Source: a bacterium (GTDB lineage Bacteria; Hinthialibacterota; Hinthialibacteria; Hinthialibacterales; Hinthialibacteraceae). From it: a stretch of DNA of 64,000 bases. Positions 32,346-38,526 of the stretch are shown here, one piece after another. The first letter of the stretch is position 1. Every line of letters begins with the position of its first letter. The translations under genes and the position numbers were made by a program. The stretch covers positions 96,001-160,000 of the forward strand of contig CAXXMV010000003.1 of the NCBI GenBank assembly GCA_963662285.2, read 5' to 3'. Below the pieces are notes generated by a model. The model saw nothing but the letters and a program-made list of their open reading frames with translations. It was not told where the DNA came from and ran no database searches.

Positions 32346-33785
32346 TTAGTATAGCGTCCAGTCTGTTACAGGCGTTCCTTTGTCTACGGTTACGCGGACG
32401 TTATCAACGACCCAGAAACCTTCCATTTGATCAGGATCGGCGCCTTTGGCTGCAAAGCGGAAGATGACGCCGCTTTTACCGGCAGCTTCAGGAACTTCAA
32501 AGTAATGATGGGTGAAATAAGGAGATTCCTCGTAATTCGTCAAAGCTTCGTGATAAGTGAAGAGGCGGGTGAAATTAGCGCCAGAGTCAACGCTGTAGAA
32601 AACTTCATAACGGGCAATACTATTACCAACCAGCACTTCTGAATCGAAATCCATGTAAACGGCGGCAGCGTCGCTAAGATCGAGAGTTGGAGTATCGAGG
32701 TCAGCGCCTTGATCTACATCTTCGGCCAACATACCTTCTTGCCACATGGCGTAACCCTGACCAGCCAGCATGAGTACCCATCTGCCATCAAGCGTGCCAT
32801 TAGGATTAAGCAATTCATCAACTTCTGTGGCTAGGTCAATAGTATATTCGTAGAATTTTGCATGGTTGAGTAGGTCGATATCAACGAATTCACCGTTTTT
32901 CTCTTTAAGAGGACCTTCATCCAAATACCATAGGCAGCGTACATCCCACTTTTGATCTTTTGCAGGAGTATTGCCCCATTCGGCTGGAATGCCATTTTCA
33001 AAATCTTCAGAAAGAACAGTTTCTGCGCCTAGTGGAGCAGGGGTAGAATCAATCACGAGGTCATCGATAGCAACCCACCATGCATCGGCTGGTTCAAAGT
33101 AACCAAAACGCAGGCGAACTTCAGCTTGATTGGCTGCTGCGGCTGGTAATGGAAAATGCACCCGGCCATGAATTCCGTCAAAACTCAAAAATTGATTGGC
33201 GCTTCCCAGTTCTGGATATCCACCTGAGAAAGCTGCGCCGTCAATGCCATTATCCCAGCCTTTGATGGGGCGTTGTGGTTCAACGCATTGCCAGATGGGA
33301 AGCCAGGTTGCGCCGCCATCAATAGTGACAGCAAACTGGAAGACGCATTCGCCGTTGTTATTTGAATCAACTTCGACATTGGCGTGCATCCAGACTTCGC
33401 TGGCGCCGACTGTGCTGAAAACTGGCGTTAATGCCCAGATTTCGGATTCTGAGCCAATATTGTCAGAACCGCTGCCAGCATCAGAGTCGGCCATTAAGTA
33501 ACCGCCATCAGAAGCAGTACCATCGGCTTTAGGTGGATTGATAAAGCCTGTGTCGGTTCCAGGACCATCCTGGCCTTCAGGCCATTCTGGAGCGATAATG
33601 AAGTTACTGCCAACTTCAGCAACAAATTCGTTTTCAGTAAATTCCCAACCACGGGATAGTGCGCCGACGGTGCCTCCCGTGTTAAAATCGTCTTCGAAAA
33701 AAACTTGAGCATTACTTTGAGGTACGCACAATATGAGAGCTGCGAGACTAGTTAAAGCGAAAATTTTCAGAGATGTTCTTATCAT
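32346..33785 (-). CDS. Secreted 479-aa protein with two jelly-roll/MAM-like repeats (paralog 1)
   Basis: GGAGGA RBS, signal peptide ending SNA, internal repeat EDDF..W..IDDL / EDFENG..W..VDNV, ends TPVTDWTLY. Confidence 0.85.
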   Translation of the reverse strand: MIRTSLKIFALTSLAALILCVPQSNAQVFFEDDFNTGGTVGALSRGWEFTENEFVAEVGSNFIIAPEWPEGQDGPGTDTGFINPPKADGTASDGGYLMADSDAGSGSDNIGSESEIWALTPVFSTVGASEVWMHANVEVDSNNNGECVFQFAVTIDGGATWLPIWQCVEPQRPIKGWDNGIDGAAFSGGYPELGSANQFLSFDGIHGRVHFPLPAAAANQAEVRLRFGYFEPADAWWVAIDDLVIDSTPAPLGAETVLSEDFENGIPAEWGNTPAKDQKWDVRCLWYLDEGPLKEKNGEFVDIDLLNHAKFYEYTIDLATEVDELLNPNGTLDGRWVLMLAGQGYAMWQEGMLAEDVDQGADLDTPTLDLSDAAAVYMDFDSEVLVGNSIARYEVFYSVDSGANFTRLFTYHEALTNYEESPYFTHHYFEVPEAAGKSGVIFRFAAKGADPDQMEGFWVVDNVRVTVDKGTPVTDWTLY

Positions 33786-34177
33786 GGATAATCCTCCTAT
33801 TTTATTATACTTATAGTCTTTCTTTACTTCATTAAGGCTGTTCGTTGAAACATTGATGAGAAACCAAATCATATTAATTTGAAAATTTAACATAATTTTA
33901 ATACTGATGGAAGTAGAAAATACAAAAAATCAGAAAACATTCGATCTAGTGGTGGATGGATATATTACCTCGCTTTCTGTAATATTCATTAGATTAAAAG
34001 AATATATTTTGTAAATCGCTCTAGTCGGCGGTTATGATGTGAAATATTTCTTTAATTATCACATGAGAAGAATATATAGCGGAAATGTTTTGGCTTTATA
34101 AAGGGGATGTTTGATTTGTGTGATTTTTCGTGAGAGGGAGGTGGTTAAAAGGAAAATCAGTTATTTTTTAAACCGGG

Positions 34178-34214
34178 AAGAAAAAGGGGATGAACCGTTT
34201 CCCGATTCATCCCC
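34178..34214 (-). terminator. Intrinsic terminator of paralog 2
   Basis: Minus strand GGGGATGAATCG / CGGTTCATCCCC followed by TTTTTCTT; homologous to 32251-32287. Confidence 0.8.
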
Positions 34215-34382
34215 CATACTCATCTTTTGTTCAACGAAATGACTGTTAATAAGAGCGATTCTTAAAATAACGTGCTTTAATCCGGGTGTTTAAAGTCCCC
34301 AGAAGATGGGACTTTAAACAAATCCAAAGTTATCAATGCGCATATATTTTTGTTAACCGCTATAACCATAAAAACGTTAATT

Positions 34383-35822
34383 CTAGTATAGCGTCCAATC
34401 TGTTACAGGAGTTCCCTTGTCAACAGTTACGCGAACGTTATCAACAACCCAGAAACCGTTCATTTGGTCAGGATCGGCGCCTTTGGCTGCAAAGCGGAAG
34501 ATTACGCCGCTTTTACCAGCAGCATCAGGAACTTCAAAGTAATGATGGGTGAAATAAGGGGATTCTTCGTAATTCGTCAAAGCTTCGTGATAAGTGAAAA
34601 GGCGGGTGAAATTAGCGCCGGAATCAACGCTGTAGAAAACTTCATAACGGACATCGCCATTACCAGCCAGCACTTCGGAATCGAAATCCATGTAAACGGC
34701 GGCAGCGTCGCTAAGATCGAGAGTTGGCGTATCTAAGTCAGCGCCTTGATCTACGTCTTCGGCCAGCATACCTTCTTGCCACATGGCGTAACCCTGACCA
34801 GCCAGCATGAGAACCCATCTGCCATCAAGGCTGCCGTTGGGATTTAGAAATTCGTCAACTTCTGTAGTAAAGTCGATGGTATAGTCCATGGATGCTGCAT
34901 GGTCAAGGATGTCGATATCAACGAATTCGCCATTATTTTCTTTGAGAGGACCTTCATCCAAATACCAAAGAGCTCTTACATCCCAAGCTTGAGTCATCAA
35001 TGGAGTGTTGCCCCATGTTGCCGGGATGCCATTTTCGAAATCTTCAGAAAGAACTGTTTCTGCGCCTTGAGGAGCAGGATTAGTATCAATCACGAGGTCA
35101 TCTAGAGCAATCCACCATGCATCGGCAGGTTCTAAGTATCCAAAGCGTAAACGAACTTCAGCTTGGTTAGCTGCTTCGGCTGGCAATTGGAAATGCACCC
35201 GGCCATGAATACCATCATAACTTAAAAATTGGTTAGCGCTTCCCAGTTCGGGATATCCGCCGGAGAAAGCTGCGCCATCAATGACATTATCCCAGGCTTT
35301 AATGGGGCGTTGTGGTTCAACGCATTGCCAGATGGGCAACCAAGTGGCGCCGCCATCAATAGTGACGGCAAACTGGAATACGCATTCGCCGTTGTTATTT
35401 GAATCAACGTCAACATTGGCGTGCATCCAGACTTCACTGGCGCCTACGGTGCTGAAGACGGGCGTCAAAGCCCAGATTTCAGATTCGGAGCCAATGTTAT
35501 CAGAACCGGAACCGGCATCTGAGTCAGCTATTAAGAAACCGCCATCTGATGCAGTACCATCGGCTTTAGGTGGATTGATGAAATCTGTGTTAGTTCCAGG
35601 GCCGTCTTGACCTTCAGGCCATTCTGGAGCAACGATGAAGTTACTGCCAACTTCGGCAACAAATTCGTTTTCTACAAATTCCCAACCACGAGCAACGGCG
35701 CCAGCGGTGCCGCCTGTATTAAAATCGTCTTCGAAGAGCACTTGAGCATTACTCTGAACTACGCCCAATGTAAGAGCGGCGATGCCGGATAATACTAAAG
35801 TTTTCAGAGATGTCTTGATCAT
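34383..35822 (-). CDS. Secreted 479-aa protein with two jelly-roll/MAM-like repeats (paralog 2)
   Basis: Same length as paralog 1 with long identical stretches; GGAGGA RBS; ends TPVTDWTLY. Confidence 0.87.
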   Translation of the reverse strand: MIKTSLKTLVLSGIAALTLGVVQSNAQVLFEDDFNTGGTAGAVARGWEFVENEFVAEVGSNFIVAPEWPEGQDGPGTNTDFINPPKADGTASDGGFLIADSDAGSGSDNIGSESEIWALTPVFSTVGASEVWMHANVDVDSNNNGECVFQFAVTIDGGATWLPIWQCVEPQRPIKAWDNVIDGAAFSGGYPELGSANQFLSYDGIHGRVHFQLPAEAANQAEVRLRFGYLEPADAWWIALDDLVIDTNPAPQGAETVLSEDFENGIPATWGNTPLMTQAWDVRALWYLDEGPLKENNGEFVDIDILDHAASMDYTIDFTTEVDEFLNPNGSLDGRWVLMLAGQGYAMWQEGMLAEDVDQGADLDTPTLDLSDAAAVYMDFDSEVLAGNGDVRYEVFYSVDSGANFTRLFTYHEALTNYEESPYFTHHYFEVPDAAGKSGVIFRFAAKGADPDQMNGFWVVDNVRVTVDKGTPVTDWTLY

Positions 35823-36319
35823 TGATTGTCCTCCAATAATTTATTGTACGTCAAAAATCTGATAAAACCTGTCGTTAAAACAAGGATGAGTAATGTATAA
35901 CATATCATAATATAATATTCTTAACTATTTATTATTACATATATGAATACACTTTACGAGTTATGCAAGGGGGAATATATTAATTTTTCATTAAAAATAC
36001 ATTAGAATAACGGTAAATTTATGGCTTAAAGTAAAATATATGCTTTTTGCATTAACAATATGTAATCAAATTGGCAATATTATATGCGACCATGCCTTTA
36101 ACAAGATAATCAACCAAGTGAATTGGGGATTGGGTATTCAATATTCGAGGTTTTTGCATGAGTGCTAACAACAGTTTCAGGATAAATGAGATTGTTTCTA
36201 AATAGTAATGTTAGTTTGCAGTAGTTATCTAGAGGGAGATATAATATAAAATATCATGGAATGTTTTATTGCAAATTTCTATTAAGAAAAAAAATAGTGA
36301 TATTACCCGAAAAAAGTGA

Positions 36320-36348
36320 TTGACAACGTAGAAATGATAGAGTATATT
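36320..36348 (+). promoter_or_regulatory. Near-consensus sigma70 promoter
   Basis: TTGACA-N17-TATATT. Confidence 0.8.
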
Positions 36349-36354
36349 TATAAG

Positions 36355-36573
36355 TAGATCGACGGATAACAGATCCGGTTTCGATAAGGATTGAGCGCCT
36401 TAACAGCTCTGCGTGGGCAATGTGGCTAATGCCATGAGCCGCGAGAATAGGTCCCTAAGGGGATTACGAATATATTGTTAACTAAGGTGAAAGAGAGGTC
36501 ATACAGCGTGGAAGAAACGCTTATAGACTTTTGAGAAGGAGTCGTTCGAAACTGAATGACTCCTTCTTATTTT
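36355..36573 (+). ncRNA. Candidate stand-alone structured ncRNA (~220 nt), family not recognised
   Basis: Bounded by the promoter and a plus-polarity terminator (36534-36573); GC-richer than its flanks; several helices; only very short ORFs. Confidence 0.65.
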
Positions 36574-36615
36574 AAATGAATTATTAATATATCTTTACAA
36601 TTGTAAAAATATATT

Positions 36616-38526
36616 CTATTTTACTATATTACTTGTTCCAAGTAATGCATTCAGCGTGTGATTTGCAACGCGTATTACGTATTTATTATTGTCTTTCATA
36701 ACTGCCTGTAGACTGGTAATCGAAGGACGAGCCATCTCTCCAATATTGTCTAGCGCAATTGCCGCGTTAAGGCGAATCCATTCTTCTTCACTTTTTAATA
36801 GTTTTTCCAAAACAGGAAGCGCTTTTTCAGGTTGATTCATGCGGCAAAGAGCGCGAGCTGCTGCGATTTGTACGCTGCCGGATTGGTCGCTGAGGGCTTC
36901 GGTTAGAAGAGTTTCCGCTTTTGATGCGTCTGAGCCAAGGTTGCCCAGGCCAATGGCGCCCCAATAACGAACTATCGAATCGACGTCGTTCAATGCTTCG
37001 ATAAGACTATTGATGCCTTTGGCGCCTTGTTCTGGAAGTTGGGCTGCGGCAATGGTGCGTTCGATTAATGCGTCTCCGCCAGTTTGCCGGGCAATGGCGT
37101 ATTCACTACCGAATTTTTTAGTGCGCTCGCGGATTTCCGGTTCGGGAATAAAACCTATGTCTTTGGTCTCTTTGACCCACTTTACATGAGCCTTACGCAT
37201 ACGTTTAAGAATATCTTGGCATCGGGGCGACTTCGCTAAGTTATTGGTTTCGTGGGGATCGTTTTGCAAATCATACAGTTCTTCCAAAGGCTTTTGCGGC
37301 GCCATGAATAGTTGCGCTTGGGGTGGTAACTTTCCTTCAGCATGAACCCGGCGGATTTCTTTCATGGTGGCGCCCTTTTCGGGGGTGTTCATGTATTGAT
37401 AGTAGGTTTTGTAAGGTTCGTAGTTACGGATGTACTTGTAGCGTTTGTCGCGAACCGCACGGATTATGTCGTAGCGTTCATCCATGCGGTCTCGTGCGCC
37501 ATATATGTAGTCGCGTGGTCTGGTGAGGTTCTCTCCTAGAAAAGCGCGTCCCTGCATGTGATCGGGTATCTTGATTCCCGCCAGGTTAAGAACGGTCGGG
37601 GCGAGGTCGACGAAACTGACCAGTTCGTCATTGGTTGAACCGGGTGCGCCAGGTTTAGGGCTGCGCAGTTTTTCAGGGATGTGAACGATCATTGGTACGC
37701 GCAATCCAGAATCGTATAACCAGCGTTTGGCGCGGGGCAAACCAATGCCATGATCGGAGAAAAAGATAACGATAGTGTTATCCGTTAATCCATCATCATC
37801 CAATTGCTTTAGAATTTCCGCGACCTGCATATCCATAGCGGTAATCAAATCGTAGTTACGCGCCCAATCTTTTCGGGTGATCGGGGTATCTGGATAGTAG
37901 GGGGGAAGGGTGGTTAATTTTTCTGGATCATGCTTTTGGTCATCAGAAAGGTTTTGGGTTGCTTTGTTATATAATTCTTCGCTGGCGATGCGGCTTTCAT
38001 GAGTGGTTACGAAATTGAAGATGGAGAAGAATGGTTGGTCTTTATTTTTGCGGTAGCGCCAGTGGGCTTTATTATCGCATTGATCCCAGGCCGATTTTGG
38101 GTGATTGAACTGATAATCAGTCTTGGCGTTATTGGTGCAATAATATCCTGCATCACGCATGTATTCGCTGAAGCATTTGATGTGGGGCGGGGGAGTCGCT
38201 TTGCAGCGCATGTGATGCGAACCTAGGGTGGTTTGGTATACTCCGGTAATGATGCATGAGCGGTTGGGAGCGCATACTCCACATACGGCGTAGGCGTTGG
38301 TATAGCGAACGCCATTGCGGGCGAGACGGTCGAGAGTGGGCGTGGTTGCGTGAGGATCGCCGTAACAACCCAGGTGGGGGCTGATATCTTCACAGGTGAG
38401 CCATAGAATATTGGGCTTCTGGCTATCATCTTGACTAGCCAGCGTATTGTGCGCTATCGATATTGATGCGGCGCTCAGGCTGGTTGTTTTGAGAAAACTT
38501 CGTCGGTTTAGATTATTGAGTTTCAT
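36616..38526 (-). CDS. Tat-exported sulfatase with C-terminal HEAT repeats
   Basis: NRRSFLK, PNILWLTCED, CAPNRSCIITG and SDHG; VRYWGAIGLG, VQIAAARAL and IRLNAAIAL repeats. Confidence 0.93.
   Translation of the reverse strand: MKLNNLNRRSFLKTTSLSAASISIAHNTLASQDDSQKPNILWLTCEDISPHLGCYGDPHATTPTLDRLARNGVRYTNAYAVCGVCAPNRSCIITGVYQTTLGSHHMRCKATPPPHIKCFSEYMRDAGYYCTNNAKTDYQFNHPKSAWDQCDNKAHWRYRKNKDQPFFSIFNFVTTHESRIASEELYNKATQNLSDDQKHDPEKLTTLPPYYPDTPITRKDWARNYDLITAMDMQVAEILKQLDDDGLTDNTIVIFFSDHGIGLPRAKRWLYDSGLRVPMIVHIPEKLRSPKPGAPGSTNDELVSFVDLAPTVLNLAGIKIPDHMQGRAFLGENLTRPRDYIYGARDRMDERYDIIRAVRDKRYKYIRNYEPYKTYYQYMNTPEKGATMKEIRRVHAEGKLPPQAQLFMAPQKPLEELYDLQNDPHETNNLAKSPRCQDILKRMRKAHVKWVKETKDIGFIPEPEIRERTKKFGSEYAIARQTGGDALIERTIAAAQLPEQGAKGINSLIEALNDVDSIVRYWGAIGLGNLGSDASKAETLLTEALSDQSGSVQIAAARALCRMNQPEKALPVLEKLLKSEEEWIRLNAAIALDNIGEMARPSITSLQAVMKDNNKYVIRVANHTLNALLGTSNIVK

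What the first reader, a model, noticed from the sequence alone, without database searches (positions are those of the whole stretch)
36320..36573. Stand-alone ~220-nt structured RNA gene of unknown family
Seen: TTGACA-17-TATATT precedes a GC-richer island that ends in a 14-bp terminator whose U tract is on the plus strand only, so it does not simply serve the convergent sulfatase. Helices: AUCGA-CGGAU / AUCCG-UCGAU (36358-36385), UGUGGC-UAAU-GCCAUG within GGC/GCC, GUCCC/GGGAU, and AGGUC-AUA-AGCGU / ACGCU-UAU-GACUU. CCUUA (36398-36402) can pair with UAAGG (36385-36389), allowing a GAGC/GCUC pseudoknot, or with UAAGGUG (36483-36489), suggesting two states. It is transcribed divergently from the panhandle paralogs. 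Inference: a novel sRNA or protein-sponge RNA; a very short peptide is not excluded.
Basis: partly seen in the sequence, partly recalled or inferred. Interest (0 to 1): 0.75.

Follow-up and report, generated by a model that had tools for sequence, protein, structure and literature searches.

The report
New multi-copy structured small RNA family
This is a real small RNA gene of about 220 bases, found in RNA libraries, from an undescribed family confined to one bacterial lineage; the family's shared tail looks like a miniature ribosome-binding site with a 5-10 codon reading frame that ends inside the RNA's own terminator.

Summary
A near-consensus promoter (36320-36348) and a 17-bp terminator with a plus-strand-only U tract (36532-36573) bracket a GC-richer, strongly folding stretch (z -5.3). 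Rfam 15 has no match.

It is not an orphan. Covariance models found 38 forward-strand copies in 18 of 20 genomes of the same family, and none that held up in the other 15 genomes of the phylum. Copies number 1-5 per genome, some in tandem, and neighbours are not conserved. The pseudoknot is only moderately supported.

Short contigs in four RNA libraries from four studies cover 36366-36543 and not the flanks.

New here: the conserved 3' cassette reads as a strong Shine-Dalgarno, a start codon and a 5-10 codon mini-ORF. Its stop codon (UAA, UGA or UAG in 34 of 37 copies, never UGG) forms the first pairs of the terminator. Two loci carry two 5' domains ahead of one cassette.

Best reading: a trans-acting modular RNA with a 5' pseudoknotted binding domain and a ribosome-engaging cassette. 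Function is inferred, not shown. The CsrA-sponge, attenuator and pure base-pairing readings remain open.

The parts
36284..36319 (+). A-rich stretch upstream of the -35 (UP-element-like). Other copies carry AAAAAA(C)C(C)TATTG-
   Evidence: Read. The same A-tract plus CCTATTGNCA arrangement precedes paralogues and homologues. A UP-element function is inferred.
36320..36348 (+). Sigma-70-type promoter TTGACA-17-TATATT
   Evidence: 11 of 12 positions match. TTGACA and the -10 are kept in the G005 and G017 orthologues.
36355..36575 (+). Predicted sRNA, about 220 nt. The 5' end is inferred from the -10 and the 3' end from the U tract.
   Evidence: RNA-library contigs cover 36366-36543. The ends are not mapped.
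36358..36385 (+). P1, the 5' hairpin (AUCGA-CGGAU / AUCCG-UCGAU). Its sequence varies across the family.
   Evidence: a different sequence but always a hairpin at this place.
36385..36402 (+). Candidate H-type pseudoknot: UAAGG 36385-89 pairs with CCUUA 36398-402 in the P2 loop.
   Evidence: the central G-C pairs are kept in 21-24 of 31-32 rows, and the flanking pairs covary but pair in only about half the rows. The rival pairing with 36483-89 is not excluded.
36393..36409 (+). P2 hairpin GAGC/GCUC with the conserved loop GCCNNAAnA
   Evidence: 96% of cells paired, 4 of 4 pairs with changes on both sides.
36412..36443 (+). P3 two-part hairpin. The tip loop is UAAU here and GUGA (GNRA-type) in most homologues.
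   Evidence: 87% paired in both parts, 9 of 9 pairs with changes on both sides.
36450..36465 (+). P4 hairpin (G)GUCCC-UAAG-GGGAU(U)
   Evidence: 94% paired. The G-U pair at its base is kept in 13 rows, which fits the + strand only.
36481..36499 (+). Conserved purine-rich single strand ACUAAGGUGAAAGAGAGGU. GAAAG-A-GAGGU (36489-99) is an extended Shine-Dalgarno complement.
   Evidence: The duplex with the genome's own 16S tail is -13.0 kcal/mol, in the top 2.6% of 3160 crude gene starts.
36496..36530 (+). P5 hairpin. It sequesters part of the SD and holds the start codon at its loop edge.
   Evidence: GGUGAGCG/CGCCACC in most copies, GGUC-AUA-AGCGU/ACGCU-UAU-GACU here.
36508..36534 (+). Mini-ORF GUG GAA GAA ACG CUU AUA GAC UUU UGA (8 codons plus stop)
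   Evidence: same position and frame as the mini-ORFs of 33 other copies. Translation is inferred, not shown.
36532..36573 (+). Intrinsic terminator: stem 36532-36569 plus UUUU. Its first three bases are the mini-ORF stop codon. The arms read AGAAGGAGUC / GACUCCUUCU (SD-like / anti-SD-like).
   Evidence: 96% paired, 8 of 13 pairs with changes on both sides. The arm sequence is conserved across the family.

Best explanation
36355-36575(+) is an independently transcribed, terminated and expressed structured small RNA. It is one of five related genes in this genome and of at least 38 copies in a lineage-restricted family.

The RNA is modular. The 5' part holds a variable hairpin P1, a small H-type pseudoknot around P2, a two-part hairpin P3 and a hairpin P4. 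It behaves as a self-contained binding module: it covaries, it never occurs without the cassette, and in two loci it is duplicated in tandem ahead of a single cassette.

The 3' part is a cassette shared by all family members, including those with other 5' domains. It is a translation-initiation region in miniature. It holds an unusually strong Shine-Dalgarno sequence partly locked in hairpin P5, a start codon at the loop, and a reading frame of 5-10 codons. The stop codon of that frame forms the first base pairs of the intrinsic terminator.

My committed reading is that the RNA acts in trans. Ribosomes (30S, then 70S) engage the cassette. A ribosome standing at the stop codon must melt the lower part of the terminator stem. 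Ribosome loading therefore sets how much of the RNA is terminated and how stable it is, much as was shown for the mccA mini-ORF transcript. The 5' domain binds the unknown specific partner, either a protein or a small ligand, and may gate access to the SD.

Shown: the gene, the family, the structure, and presence in RNA libraries. Inferred: translation of the mini-ORF, the coupling to the terminator, and action in trans.
For: Gene signals: promoter and terminator, fold z -5.3, and a promoter, RNA and terminator all kept at 76% identity in two other genera with compensatory changes.

Family: model R1 hit 11 of 20 family genomes. Model R2 hit G000 plus 17 of its 19 family relatives. It hit 0 of 6 genomes in the two other families of the order. 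Its single hit in the remaining 9 genomes of the phylum proved to be a gene-end terminator.

Structure: on 37 aligned copies, 88.1% of cells pair against 76.9% in shuffles and 41-53% in slid controls. 33 of 41 pairs show changes on both sides. Conserved G-U pairs fit the + strand only.

Expression: contigs of 151-178 nt in RNA libraries X3, X4 and X5, and 9 short pieces in X6 (four studies), cover 36366-36543 at 95-99% identity. Depth is zero over 36150-36359 and 36549-36750.

Cassette: 34 of 37 copies have a stop codon at the foot of the terminator (TAA 14, TGA 13, TAG 7, TGG 0). 25 of those 34 have an in-frame ATG, 8 have only an in-frame GTG, and 1 has no start. ATGs lying 12-45 nt upstream fall 30, 4 and 7 in frames 0, 1 and 2. 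ORF lengths are 5, 6, 8, 9 and 10 codons, so loop-length changes keep the frame.

SD: the organism uses SD sequences (806 of 3160 starts against 74 of 3160 in a control window; 16S tail ...GGAUCACCUCCUUUCU). The SDs of the five G000 copies rank in the top 2.6-4.7% of gene starts.

Modularity: the short paralogues share only the cassette. G010 and G013 have two 5' domains ahead of one cassette. All 19 R3 matches with E up to 5e-6 lie inside a locus that carries the cassette.

Trans action: the nearest downstream ORF is on the same strand in 16 copies, on the opposite strand in 19, and absent in 1 of 36. Neighbours share no family beyond orthologous synteny.

Precedent (abstract read): binding of a ribosome to a 7-codon ORF controls an adjacent intrinsic terminator and makes that short RNA abundant and stable (PMC4231749).
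Against: There are no ribosome-profiling, toeprint or end-mapping data. Contigs cannot show RNA ends, strand or level, and DNA carry-over in RNA libraries is not excluded (caution printed).

In the predicted ground state the SD and start codon are partly buried in P5.

The window's clade starts with GUG, and its peptide (MEETLIDF) is unlike the x-T/A-P-P-x-x of most copies. The peptide itself is therefore not conserved.

The Pro-Pro codons (CCA CCN) are also the anti-SD strand of P5, so part of the 'coding' pattern could be a by-product of RNA structure.

The copies are related, so the frame counts are not independent. At 80% identity they collapse to 29 clusters, of which 24 hold an ATG in that stretch and 21 of those hold one in frame.

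Three copies lack the stop at the junction and one lacks a start.

No antiterminator or other alternative fold was found that would make ribosome binding change termination.

The partner of the 5' domain is entirely unknown.
Confidence: 0.45

Rival explanations
1. A purely non-coding, base-pairing (possibly Hfq-dependent) sibling-sRNA family. The conserved cassette is a chaperone-binding and terminator module, and the purine-rich single strands are seeds. The ORF-like features are by-products of a conserved hairpin plus a conserved URR-GGAAGG junction.
For: Multi-copy, partly tandem paralogues with a shared 3' module and variable 5' parts are typical of sibling sRNAs. Hfq is encoded in the genome (84.1 bits). 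P5 and the terminator covary as RNA. The Pro-Pro codons double as the anti-SD strand of P5.
Against: The junction triplet is UAA, UGA or UAG in 34 of 37 copies and never UGG. ATGs fall 30, 4 and 7 in the three frames, and loop-length changes come in threes. None of this is expected of a seed or a chaperone site. Terminator-arm sequence, and not only pairing, is conserved. The 5' domain is far more elaborate (pseudoknot, GNRA loop) than usual for seed-type sRNAs. No target search was done.
Confidence: 0.22
2. A decoy (sponge) for CsrA or another protein that binds SD-like GGA sequences. The two conserved AAGGA(A/U)GG sites (before P5 and at the terminator foot) bind one dimer per RNA, and many abundant copies titrate the protein.
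For: CsrA is encoded in the genome. The conserved single-stranded motifs are GGA-containing and SD-like. Multi-copy abundant RNAs fit a titration role.
Against: CsrA is present in 35 of 35 genomes of the phylum, whereas the RNA is confined to one family. The profile is therefore uninformative at best. csrA sits directly downstream of fliW. By recalled knowledge, that is the arrangement of the FliW partner-switch systems, for which no sRNA antagonist is known; the abstract of PMC4894983 describes Campylobacter as lacking antagonising sRNAs (listing). At least three of the seven flagellin leaders of this genome show the classical site, GGA in the loop of a GC hairpin about 20 nt upstream of the SD. 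The sRNA family has no such hairpin: the similar P3 tip carries GUGA. Only two GGA sites are conserved family-wide, against many in CsrB/RsmZ-type RNAs (recalled).
Confidence: 0.12
3. A cis-acting sensor: a riboswitch-like or leader-peptide attenuator. Translation of the mini-ORF, or ligand binding to the 5' domain, decides between termination and read-through into whatever lies downstream. For the many convergent neighbours the read-through RNA would be antisense.
For: The geometry is that of an attenuator: SD, short ORF, and a stop codon inside the terminator stem. Tandem 5' domains ahead of one output module recall tandem riboswitch aptamers. By its abstract, ribosome progress at polyproline stretches changes read-through of intrinsic terminators (PMC5021804). 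In the window the terminator ends 43 nt before the stop of a convergent sulfatase gene.
Against: There is no conserved or preferentially co-oriented downstream gene: 16 on the same strand, 19 on the opposite strand, 1 none, with unrelated families. Co-oriented ORFs mostly start 111 nt or more away. Tandem copies each have their own promoter. No antiterminator alternative was found. The 5' domain was never found in front of a protein gene without the cassette. The RNA-library contigs found do not extend past 36543 (this is weak, because contigs do not show ends).
Confidence: 0.13
4. An mRNA for a functional micro-peptide of 5-10 residues. The 150-nt structured leader is merely its 5' UTR.
For: SD, start and stop signatures. 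There is a recurrent x-[T/A]-P-[P/T]-x-x pattern, and one AGG-to-CGU (Arg-to-Arg) change between two congeneric copies.
Against: The peptide is not conserved between sub-families (MEETLIDF, MSNTPPEV, MPIST ...). The last two residues vary freely even among the three near-identical paralogues of this genome. No modifying or exporting genes are linked. RNA structure, not codons, carries the conservation.
Confidence: 0.05

Closest known systems
mccA short transcript of the microcin C operon (ribosome-controlled termination; PMC4231749, abstract read)
   Same: Both are very short ORFs (7 codons there, 5-10 here) followed directly by an intrinsic terminator. The product there is a short, highly abundant RNA, and ribosome binding determines its termination and stability.
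   Different: Here no mccB-type gene is linked. The peptides are variable and do not follow the MccA rule of a C-terminal Asn (recalled). A 130-nt structured 5' domain precedes the ORF. The loci are stand-alone and multi-copy. Control by ribosomes is only inferred here.
CsrB/RsmY/RsmZ-type CsrA-sequestering sRNAs
   Same: Stand-alone, abundant, sometimes multi-copy sRNAs with GGA/SD-like motifs and a strong terminator.
   Different: Only two GGA sites are conserved, and neither sits in a hairpin loop. The genome has the fliW-csrA arrangement. CsrA occurs throughout the phylum, but the RNA does not.
Leader-peptide transcription attenuators (pyrBI-type coupling; polyproline/EF-P effects on terminators, PMC5021804 abstract read)
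   Same: An SD and a short ORF whose translating or terminating ribosome would overlap the terminator stem. Pro-Pro codons lie near the end of the ORF in most copies.
   Different: There is no regulated downstream gene and no alternative antiterminator. Each copy has its own strong promoter and occurs in unrelated contexts. The window's own clade has no Pro-Pro.
Riboswitch-derived or riboswitch-controlled trans-acting sRNAs (SreA/SreB; EutX/Rli55) and tandem-aptamer riboswitches such as glycine (all recalled, not read here)
   Same: A structured, pseudoknotted 5' sensor-like module followed by a terminator, released as a stand-alone RNA. The module is occasionally duplicated in tandem ahead of a single output module.
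   Different: No ligand, no gene association and no known aptamer class applies (Rfam negative). The output module contains a mini-ORF.
Dual-function sRNAs (RNAIII/hld, SgrS/SgrT, SR1/SR1P; recalled)
   Same: A regulatory RNA that also carries a translated ORF.
   Different: Those peptides are 26-43 residues and conserved. Here they are 5-10 residues and not conserved, which suggests that the act of translation matters rather than the product.

Membership tests
Any Rfam 15 family | Score at or above the family's gathering threshold | tested here: not met
   0 matches in the 64-kb window. The best sub-threshold hits in 35800-36700 are terminator-driven junk: rliE at 24 of 90 bits and RefA9 at 23 of 49 bits, both on the - strand. 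0 matches at E<=1 in 20 homologous loci.
CsrB/RsmZ-type CsrA sponge | Many GGA motifs, mostly exposed in hairpin loops or between hairpins | tested here: not met
   The window RNA has 5 GGA (36364, 36388, 36461, 36510, 36538), three of them inside stems. Only two are conserved family-wide, and both are SD-like single-strand or stem-foot sites.
CsrB/RsmZ-type CsrA sponge | Co-occurrence with CsrA and binding to it | tested here: inconclusive
   CsrA is present, but in 35 of 35 genomes of the phylum regardless of the RNA. It is paired with FliW. Binding is not testable here.
Leader-peptide attenuator | Short ORF with SD placed so that the ribosome overlaps a terminator | tested here: met
   The stop codon forms the first pairs of the terminator in 34 of 37 copies. 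In the window, UGA is at 36532-34 and the stem starts at 36532.
Leader-peptide attenuator | Co-oriented regulated gene downstream, and a mutually exclusive antiterminator | tested here: not met
   16 same-strand, 19 opposite-strand, 1 none; unrelated families. No alternative pairing that competes with the terminator was found by inspection.
Riboswitch | Conserved aptamer in the 5' UTR of functionally related genes | tested here: not met
   The 5' domain is conserved and covaries. All 19 R3 matches with E up to 5e-6 belong to cassette-bearing stand-alone loci. The only candidate elsewhere, G004:C45, is a chance match antisense to a gene start.
mccA-type mini-ORF transcript | Linked mccB-type adenylyltransferase and a fixed heptapeptide ending in Asn (recalled rule) | tested here: not met
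   Neighbouring ORFs share no family across loci. The peptides are 5-10 residues with variable ends.
tmRNA | tRNA-like domain plus tag ORF; one per genome | tested here: not met
   A canonical tmRNA lies elsewhere (G000:C1:499970-500323, 201.8 bits). This RNA has an SD and a start codon and is multi-copy.

The most novel reading that the evidence does not exclude
A new class of stand-alone 'ribosome-reading' regulatory RNA. A pseudoknotted 5' sensor domain, sometimes doubled like tandem aptamers, binds a metabolite or protein and gates ribosome access to a super-strong SD. The ribosome then translates a throw-away 5-10 codon frame and parks on a stop codon inside the terminator. The cell thereby converts a ligand signal, or the state of its translation apparatus (free ribosomes, release factors, EF-P at Pro-Pro), into the amount or form of an abundant trans-acting RNA. 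In effect this is an orphan riboswitch whose expression platform is a mini-gene.
Probability: 0.2. Interest if true: 0.8.

Novelty: new variant of a known kind. Interest (0 to 1): 0.58.

Why it matters
Small-RNA biology is almost unexplored in uncultivated, sulfatase-rich lineages such as this one. Here a single intergenic oddity opens onto a whole family. The family has strong comparative support for a complex fold. Short matching contigs occur in RNA libraries from estuary, sediment and other aquatic samples.

Its conserved core is not a seed or a chaperone site. It looks like a complete miniature translation unit fused to a terminator. If ribosomes really load there, the family would be a natural example of an sRNA whose making or stability is set by translation. 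So far that has been documented mainly for the special case of mccA.

The modular 5' domain, sometimes duplicated in tandem, would be a candidate for a new ligand- or protein-binding RNA fold. The family also gives annotators a model for intergenic regions that would otherwise stay blank in these genomes.

Tried and rejected
Known families. Rfam was run at gathering and permissive thresholds on the window and on 20 homologous loci. Nothing usable came back.

tmRNA. A canonical tmRNA lies elsewhere in the genome.

Plain BLAST in 40 relatives found only 2 homologues, so covariance models were needed.

Pattern scan of genome contigs. 80 stretches were listed as loci, and I gave all 80 to R2. Only 2 (L074, L104) are family members and the rest are chance matches. 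The scan therefore says nothing about spread outside the lineage. One of the two real records is titled by its depositor 'Candidatus Omnitrophota bacterium'. That label is not verified here, and I did not pursue the window's identity.

Pattern scan of metagenome contigs. It returned 28 loci, of which 5 hold full-length family members at 56 bits or more. It added little.

False hits. The R2 hit in G034, a genome of another family, is a protein-gene end with its terminator. The R3 hit at G004:C45 is antisense to a gene start.

CsrA phylogenetic profile. It is uninformative: 35 of 35 genomes carry CsrA.

'Two states'. Pairing of the P2 loop with the downstream AAGG(U/C) was counted. The CC/GG core pairs in 21-22 of 29-30 rows, one flanking pair in 18 of 30, and the others fail. 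That is no better and no worse than the upstream pseudoknot, so a switch is neither shown nor excluded.

Antiterminator. I looked by hand for pairing between the first SD and the 3' arm of the terminator. At most 6 pairs form in the window, which cannot compete with 17.

Conserved neighbours. None were found beyond orthologous synteny. The window's sulfatase matches the gene downstream of the G001 copy.

Promoter motif. A genome-wide scan for the promoter motif was too loose to use.

Rows dropped. One search used 32 of the 34 loci; L036 (a partial hit) and L037 (a false hit) were left out. Its threshold of 1e-9 excluded the reverse-strand terminator matches listed. The frame counts used 37 of the 38 copies. 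G013a was left out because it is a 5' domain without a cassette of its own.

Literature. Five full-text searches turned up no description of such an RNA. This covers only the open-access library searched, and supplements were not seen. Two papers were read as abstracts only. The others were seen only as search listings.

Full report
**What is in the window.** Between two genes lies a 790-bp AT-rich spacer. The genes are a divergent 479-aa gene (34383-35822, minus strand; it has a 515-aa paralogue beside it) and a convergent sulfatase/HEAT-repeat gene (36616-38526, minus strand). Inside the spacer, 36350-36573 is 43.8% GC. The stretch before it is 26.8% and the stretch after it 9.5%.

The best sigma-70-like site of the region is TTGACA-17-TATATT at 36320-36348, matching 11 of 12 positions. 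The only terminator-like site is a 17-pair stem at 36532-36569 followed by TTTTAAA on the plus strand. On the minus strand the hairpin is followed by CAAAAG, so there is no U tract there.

The plus strand folds to -78 kcal/mol with z -5.31, and 0 of 200 shuffles fold as well. The minus strand gives z -4.06.

**Not a known family.** Rfam 15 gives nothing at gathering scores over the 64 kb. It gives only terminator-driven sub-threshold hits locally. It gives nothing at E<=1 over 20 homologous loci. A canonical tmRNA lies elsewhere in the genome.

**It is a family.** BLAST in 40 relatives found two homologues at 76% identity, in two other genera of the same family. The -35 and -10 boxes, the RNA body and a terminator of different sequence are all kept.

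A covariance model from these three sequences (R1) hit 11 of 20 genomes of the family. A second model, built from ten diverse members with a hand-checked structure (R2), hit G000 plus 17 of the 19 other family genomes. The two genomes without a hit are 82% and 86% complete.

R2 hit 0 of 6 genomes in the two other families of the order. The one hit in the remaining 9 genomes of the phylum is a protein-gene end, not a member. The collection holds only 35 genomes for this phylum.

I curated 38 forward-strand copies in 18 genomes, with 1-5 copies per genome.

G000 itself has five copies:
- the window copy;
- a tandem pair at C1:602.7-603.2 kb, each copy with its own A-tract/-35/-10;
- one copy on C6;
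- one copy at C1:315.7-316.0 kb.

Pattern scans of the two large public collections added only 2 of 80 and 5 of 28 real members.

**Structure.** The 37 copies were aligned to R2 to give alignment A7. The alignment is fitted to the model, which favours the structure. On it, 88.1% of cells pair, against 76.9% in column shuffles and 41-53% when partners are slid by 1-3 columns. 33 of 41 pairs show changes on both sides.

| Helix | Cells paired | Pairs with changes on both sides |
|---|---|---|
| P2 | 96% | 4 of 4 |
| P3, outer and inner parts | 87% each | 9 of 9 |
| P4 | 94% | 3 of 5 |
| Terminator | 96% | 8 of 13 |

Conserved G-U pairs (13 rows at the base of P4, 16 rows in the terminator) would be A-C on the other strand. 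The plus strand is therefore the RNA.

P1 is a hairpin of different sequence in every sub-family. Most homologues have a GUGA (GNRA-type) loop on P3, where the window has UAAU.

In the window this is A36387-U36400, G36388-C36399 and G36389-C36398, extendable to UAAGG/CCUUA. It has H-type geometry with an A-rich third loop. Its two G-C pairs are kept in 21-24 of 31-32 rows. The flanking pairs covary (C-G, A-U, G-C, U-A, G-U) but pair in only about half of the rows. Overall it is 64% paired on A7 and 72% on the structure-blind MAFFT alignment A8.

A two-state switch is therefore possible but not demonstrated.

**Expression.** Of ten runs offered, seven are recorded as RNA libraries. I laid four of them, from four studies. 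X3, X4 and X5 each hold one contig of 151-178 nt that lies wholly inside 36366-36543, with 4-8 differences. X6 holds nine short pieces within 36380-36498, with sequencing adapters directly at two of their ends. Nothing was laid on 36150-36359 or on 36549-36750.

All five listed variant positions fall in predicted loops, linkers or unpaired junctions (36401, 36410, 36456, 36471, 36483).

Contigs cannot prove RNA ends, strand or level, and the tool warns that DNA can sit in RNA libraries. Short contigs confined to the predicted RNA in four independent studies are nevertheless what an abundant small RNA of a close relative would leave behind.

**The 3' cassette: the new point.** All copies share one module, including short paralogues whose 5' parts are unrelated. 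It runs as follows:
- AGAAAGG-N-AGG;
- a hairpin, mostly GGUGAGCG...CGCCACC;
- six variable bases;
- U-R-R;
- GGAAGGAGUCAU...AUGGCUCCUUCC, followed by UUUUAAA.

Read as a message, this is a Shine-Dalgarno sequence, a start codon at the hairpin loop, a frame of 5-10 codons, and a stop codon that forms the first pairs of the terminator.

Counts on the 37 copies that have a terminator arm:

| Feature | Count |
|---|---|
| Junction stop present | 34 of 37 (TAA 14, TGA 13, TAG 7, TGG 0) |
| In-frame ATG, among the 34 | 25 |
| Only an in-frame GTG | 8 |
| No start | 1 |
| ATGs 12-45 nt upstream, frames 0 / 1 / 2 | 30 / 4 / 7 |
| ORF lengths | 5, 6, 8, 9, 10 codons |

When the 34 copies are collapsed at 80% identity, 21 of the 24 clusters that have any ATG have one in frame. 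The ORF lengths show that changes in loop length come in threes.

The genome's 16S rRNA ends ...GGAUCACCUCCUUUCU. SD cores precede 806 of 3160 crude gene starts, against 74 of 3160 in a control window. The SD:anti-SD duplexes of the five G000 copies (-12.1 to -13.0 kcal/mol) fall in the top 2.6-4.7% of those starts.

In the window the elements are:
- SD: GAAAG-A-GAGGU at 36489-99;
- frame: GUG36508 GAA GAA ACG CUU AUA GAC UUU;
- stop: UGA at 36532-34;
- terminator stem: begins at 36532.

Most copies encode x-[T/A]-P-[P/T]-x-x. The window's clade does not (MEETLIDF, MVDALAEV, MIDTLVET), and the last two residues vary even among near-identical paralogues. The Pro-Pro codons are also the strand that pairs with the SD in P5. 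I therefore read the frame as real but the peptide as unimportant. This is inference, and no translation data exist.

**Modularity and context.** A model of the 5' domain alone (R3) found 19 matches with E up to 5e-6 in the 20 family genomes. All lie in loci that carry the cassette, and only one is in G000, the window copy. Of the three weak extra matches, two lie at R2-detected copies and the third is antisense to a gene start.

In G010 and G013 one promoter drives two consecutive 5' domains followed by a single cassette.

The nearest downstream ORF of 90 aa or more is on the same strand in 16 copies, on the opposite strand in 19, and absent in 1 of 36. Flanking proteins share no family except between orthologous loci. 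That argues for a trans-acting RNA and against a cis leader.

**How it most likely works.** I commit to a modular, trans-acting RNA. The 5' pseudoknotted domain is a binding module for an unknown protein or ligand. The cassette engages ribosomes.

By established ribosome geometry, a ribosome with the stop codon in its A site covers about 12-15 nt downstream. It must therefore open the lower two-thirds of the terminator's 5' arm. Ribosome loading can then influence termination during synthesis and the integrity of the 3' hairpin afterwards.

The closest documented case is the mccA transcript. There, ribosome binding to a 7-codon ORF controls an adjacent intrinsic terminator and makes the short RNA very abundant and stable (PMC4231749, abstract). 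Polyproline stalling is also known to alter read-through of intrinsic terminators (PMC5021804, abstract).

Against this reading, the SD and start are partly buried in P5, no alternative fold links ribosome binding to termination, and the frame statistics come from related sequences.

**Rivals.**
- Pure base-pairing or Hfq sibling sRNA. Hfq is present. This explains the multi-copy pattern but not the stop-codon and frame signatures.
- CsrA sponge. It is weakened because CsrA is universal in the phylum and csrA sits in a fliW-csrA pair. At least three of the genome's own flagellin leaders show the classical GGA-in-loop hairpin plus SD, which the sRNA lacks.
- Cis attenuator or riboswitch. It fits the geometry and the tandem domains but lacks any consistent downstream gene.
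- Micro-peptide gene. It is unlikely because the peptide is not conserved.

**Verdict.** It is a member of a new, lineage-restricted, multi-copy family. No Rfam family matches it, and five full-text searches found no description in the open library. The unusual feature is the conserved mini translation unit fused to the terminator. Function remains inferred.

Noticed in passing
G000:C1:602700-603240 (outside the window; L056): Two tandem short paralogues about 375 bp apart. Each has its own A-tract/-35/-10 promoter and terminator. They share only the 3' cassette with the window RNA and have a different 5' part (three hairpins, no P2/P3/P4).
   Followed up: partly
G000:C1:about 602463-602518: A long, near-perfect inverted repeat (TTGAGTCAATACTATATGCACAAATA / TATTTGTGCATATAGTATTGACTCAA) lies about 150 bp upstream of the tandem paralogues. 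Its meaning is unknown.
   Followed up: no
L010:1420-1830 (G010) and L049:505-960, minus strand (G013): One promoter drives two consecutive 5' domains followed by a single SD/mini-ORF/terminator cassette. The arrangement resembles tandem aptamers.
   Followed up: yes
G000:C1:76894-77778 (L019:874-1758): A fliW-csrA gene pair. Three or four of the genome's seven flagellin genes have leaders with a GC hairpin carrying GGA in its loop about 20 nt upstream of an AGGAGGA SD, which is a textbook CsrA dual site (examples: C2:713689, C2:650058, C2:709386).
   Followed up: partly
window 32346-35822 (-): Two adjacent paralogous genes (515 and 479 aa). Each has only a sub-threshold C-terminal match to Reelin subrepeat B (24.6 and 24.9 bits; cut-off 27). 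They are otherwise uncharacterised.
   Followed up: no
window 36616-38526 (-): A sulfatase fused to C-terminal HEAT repeats. A homologue sits in the same convergent position next to the RNA's counterpart in G001, so this RNA-sulfatase neighbourhood is syntenic between two genera.
   Followed up: partly
window 35823-36319: A 500-bp, 27% GC spacer with several further promoter-like sites on both strands. They are presumably for the divergent 479-aa gene and were not analysed.
   Followed up: no
G000:C1:about 913417 (+): Another A-tract plus CTATTGACA...TATATTATACT promoter-like site of the same style as the sRNA promoters. It may mark a further small RNA gene.
   Followed up: no
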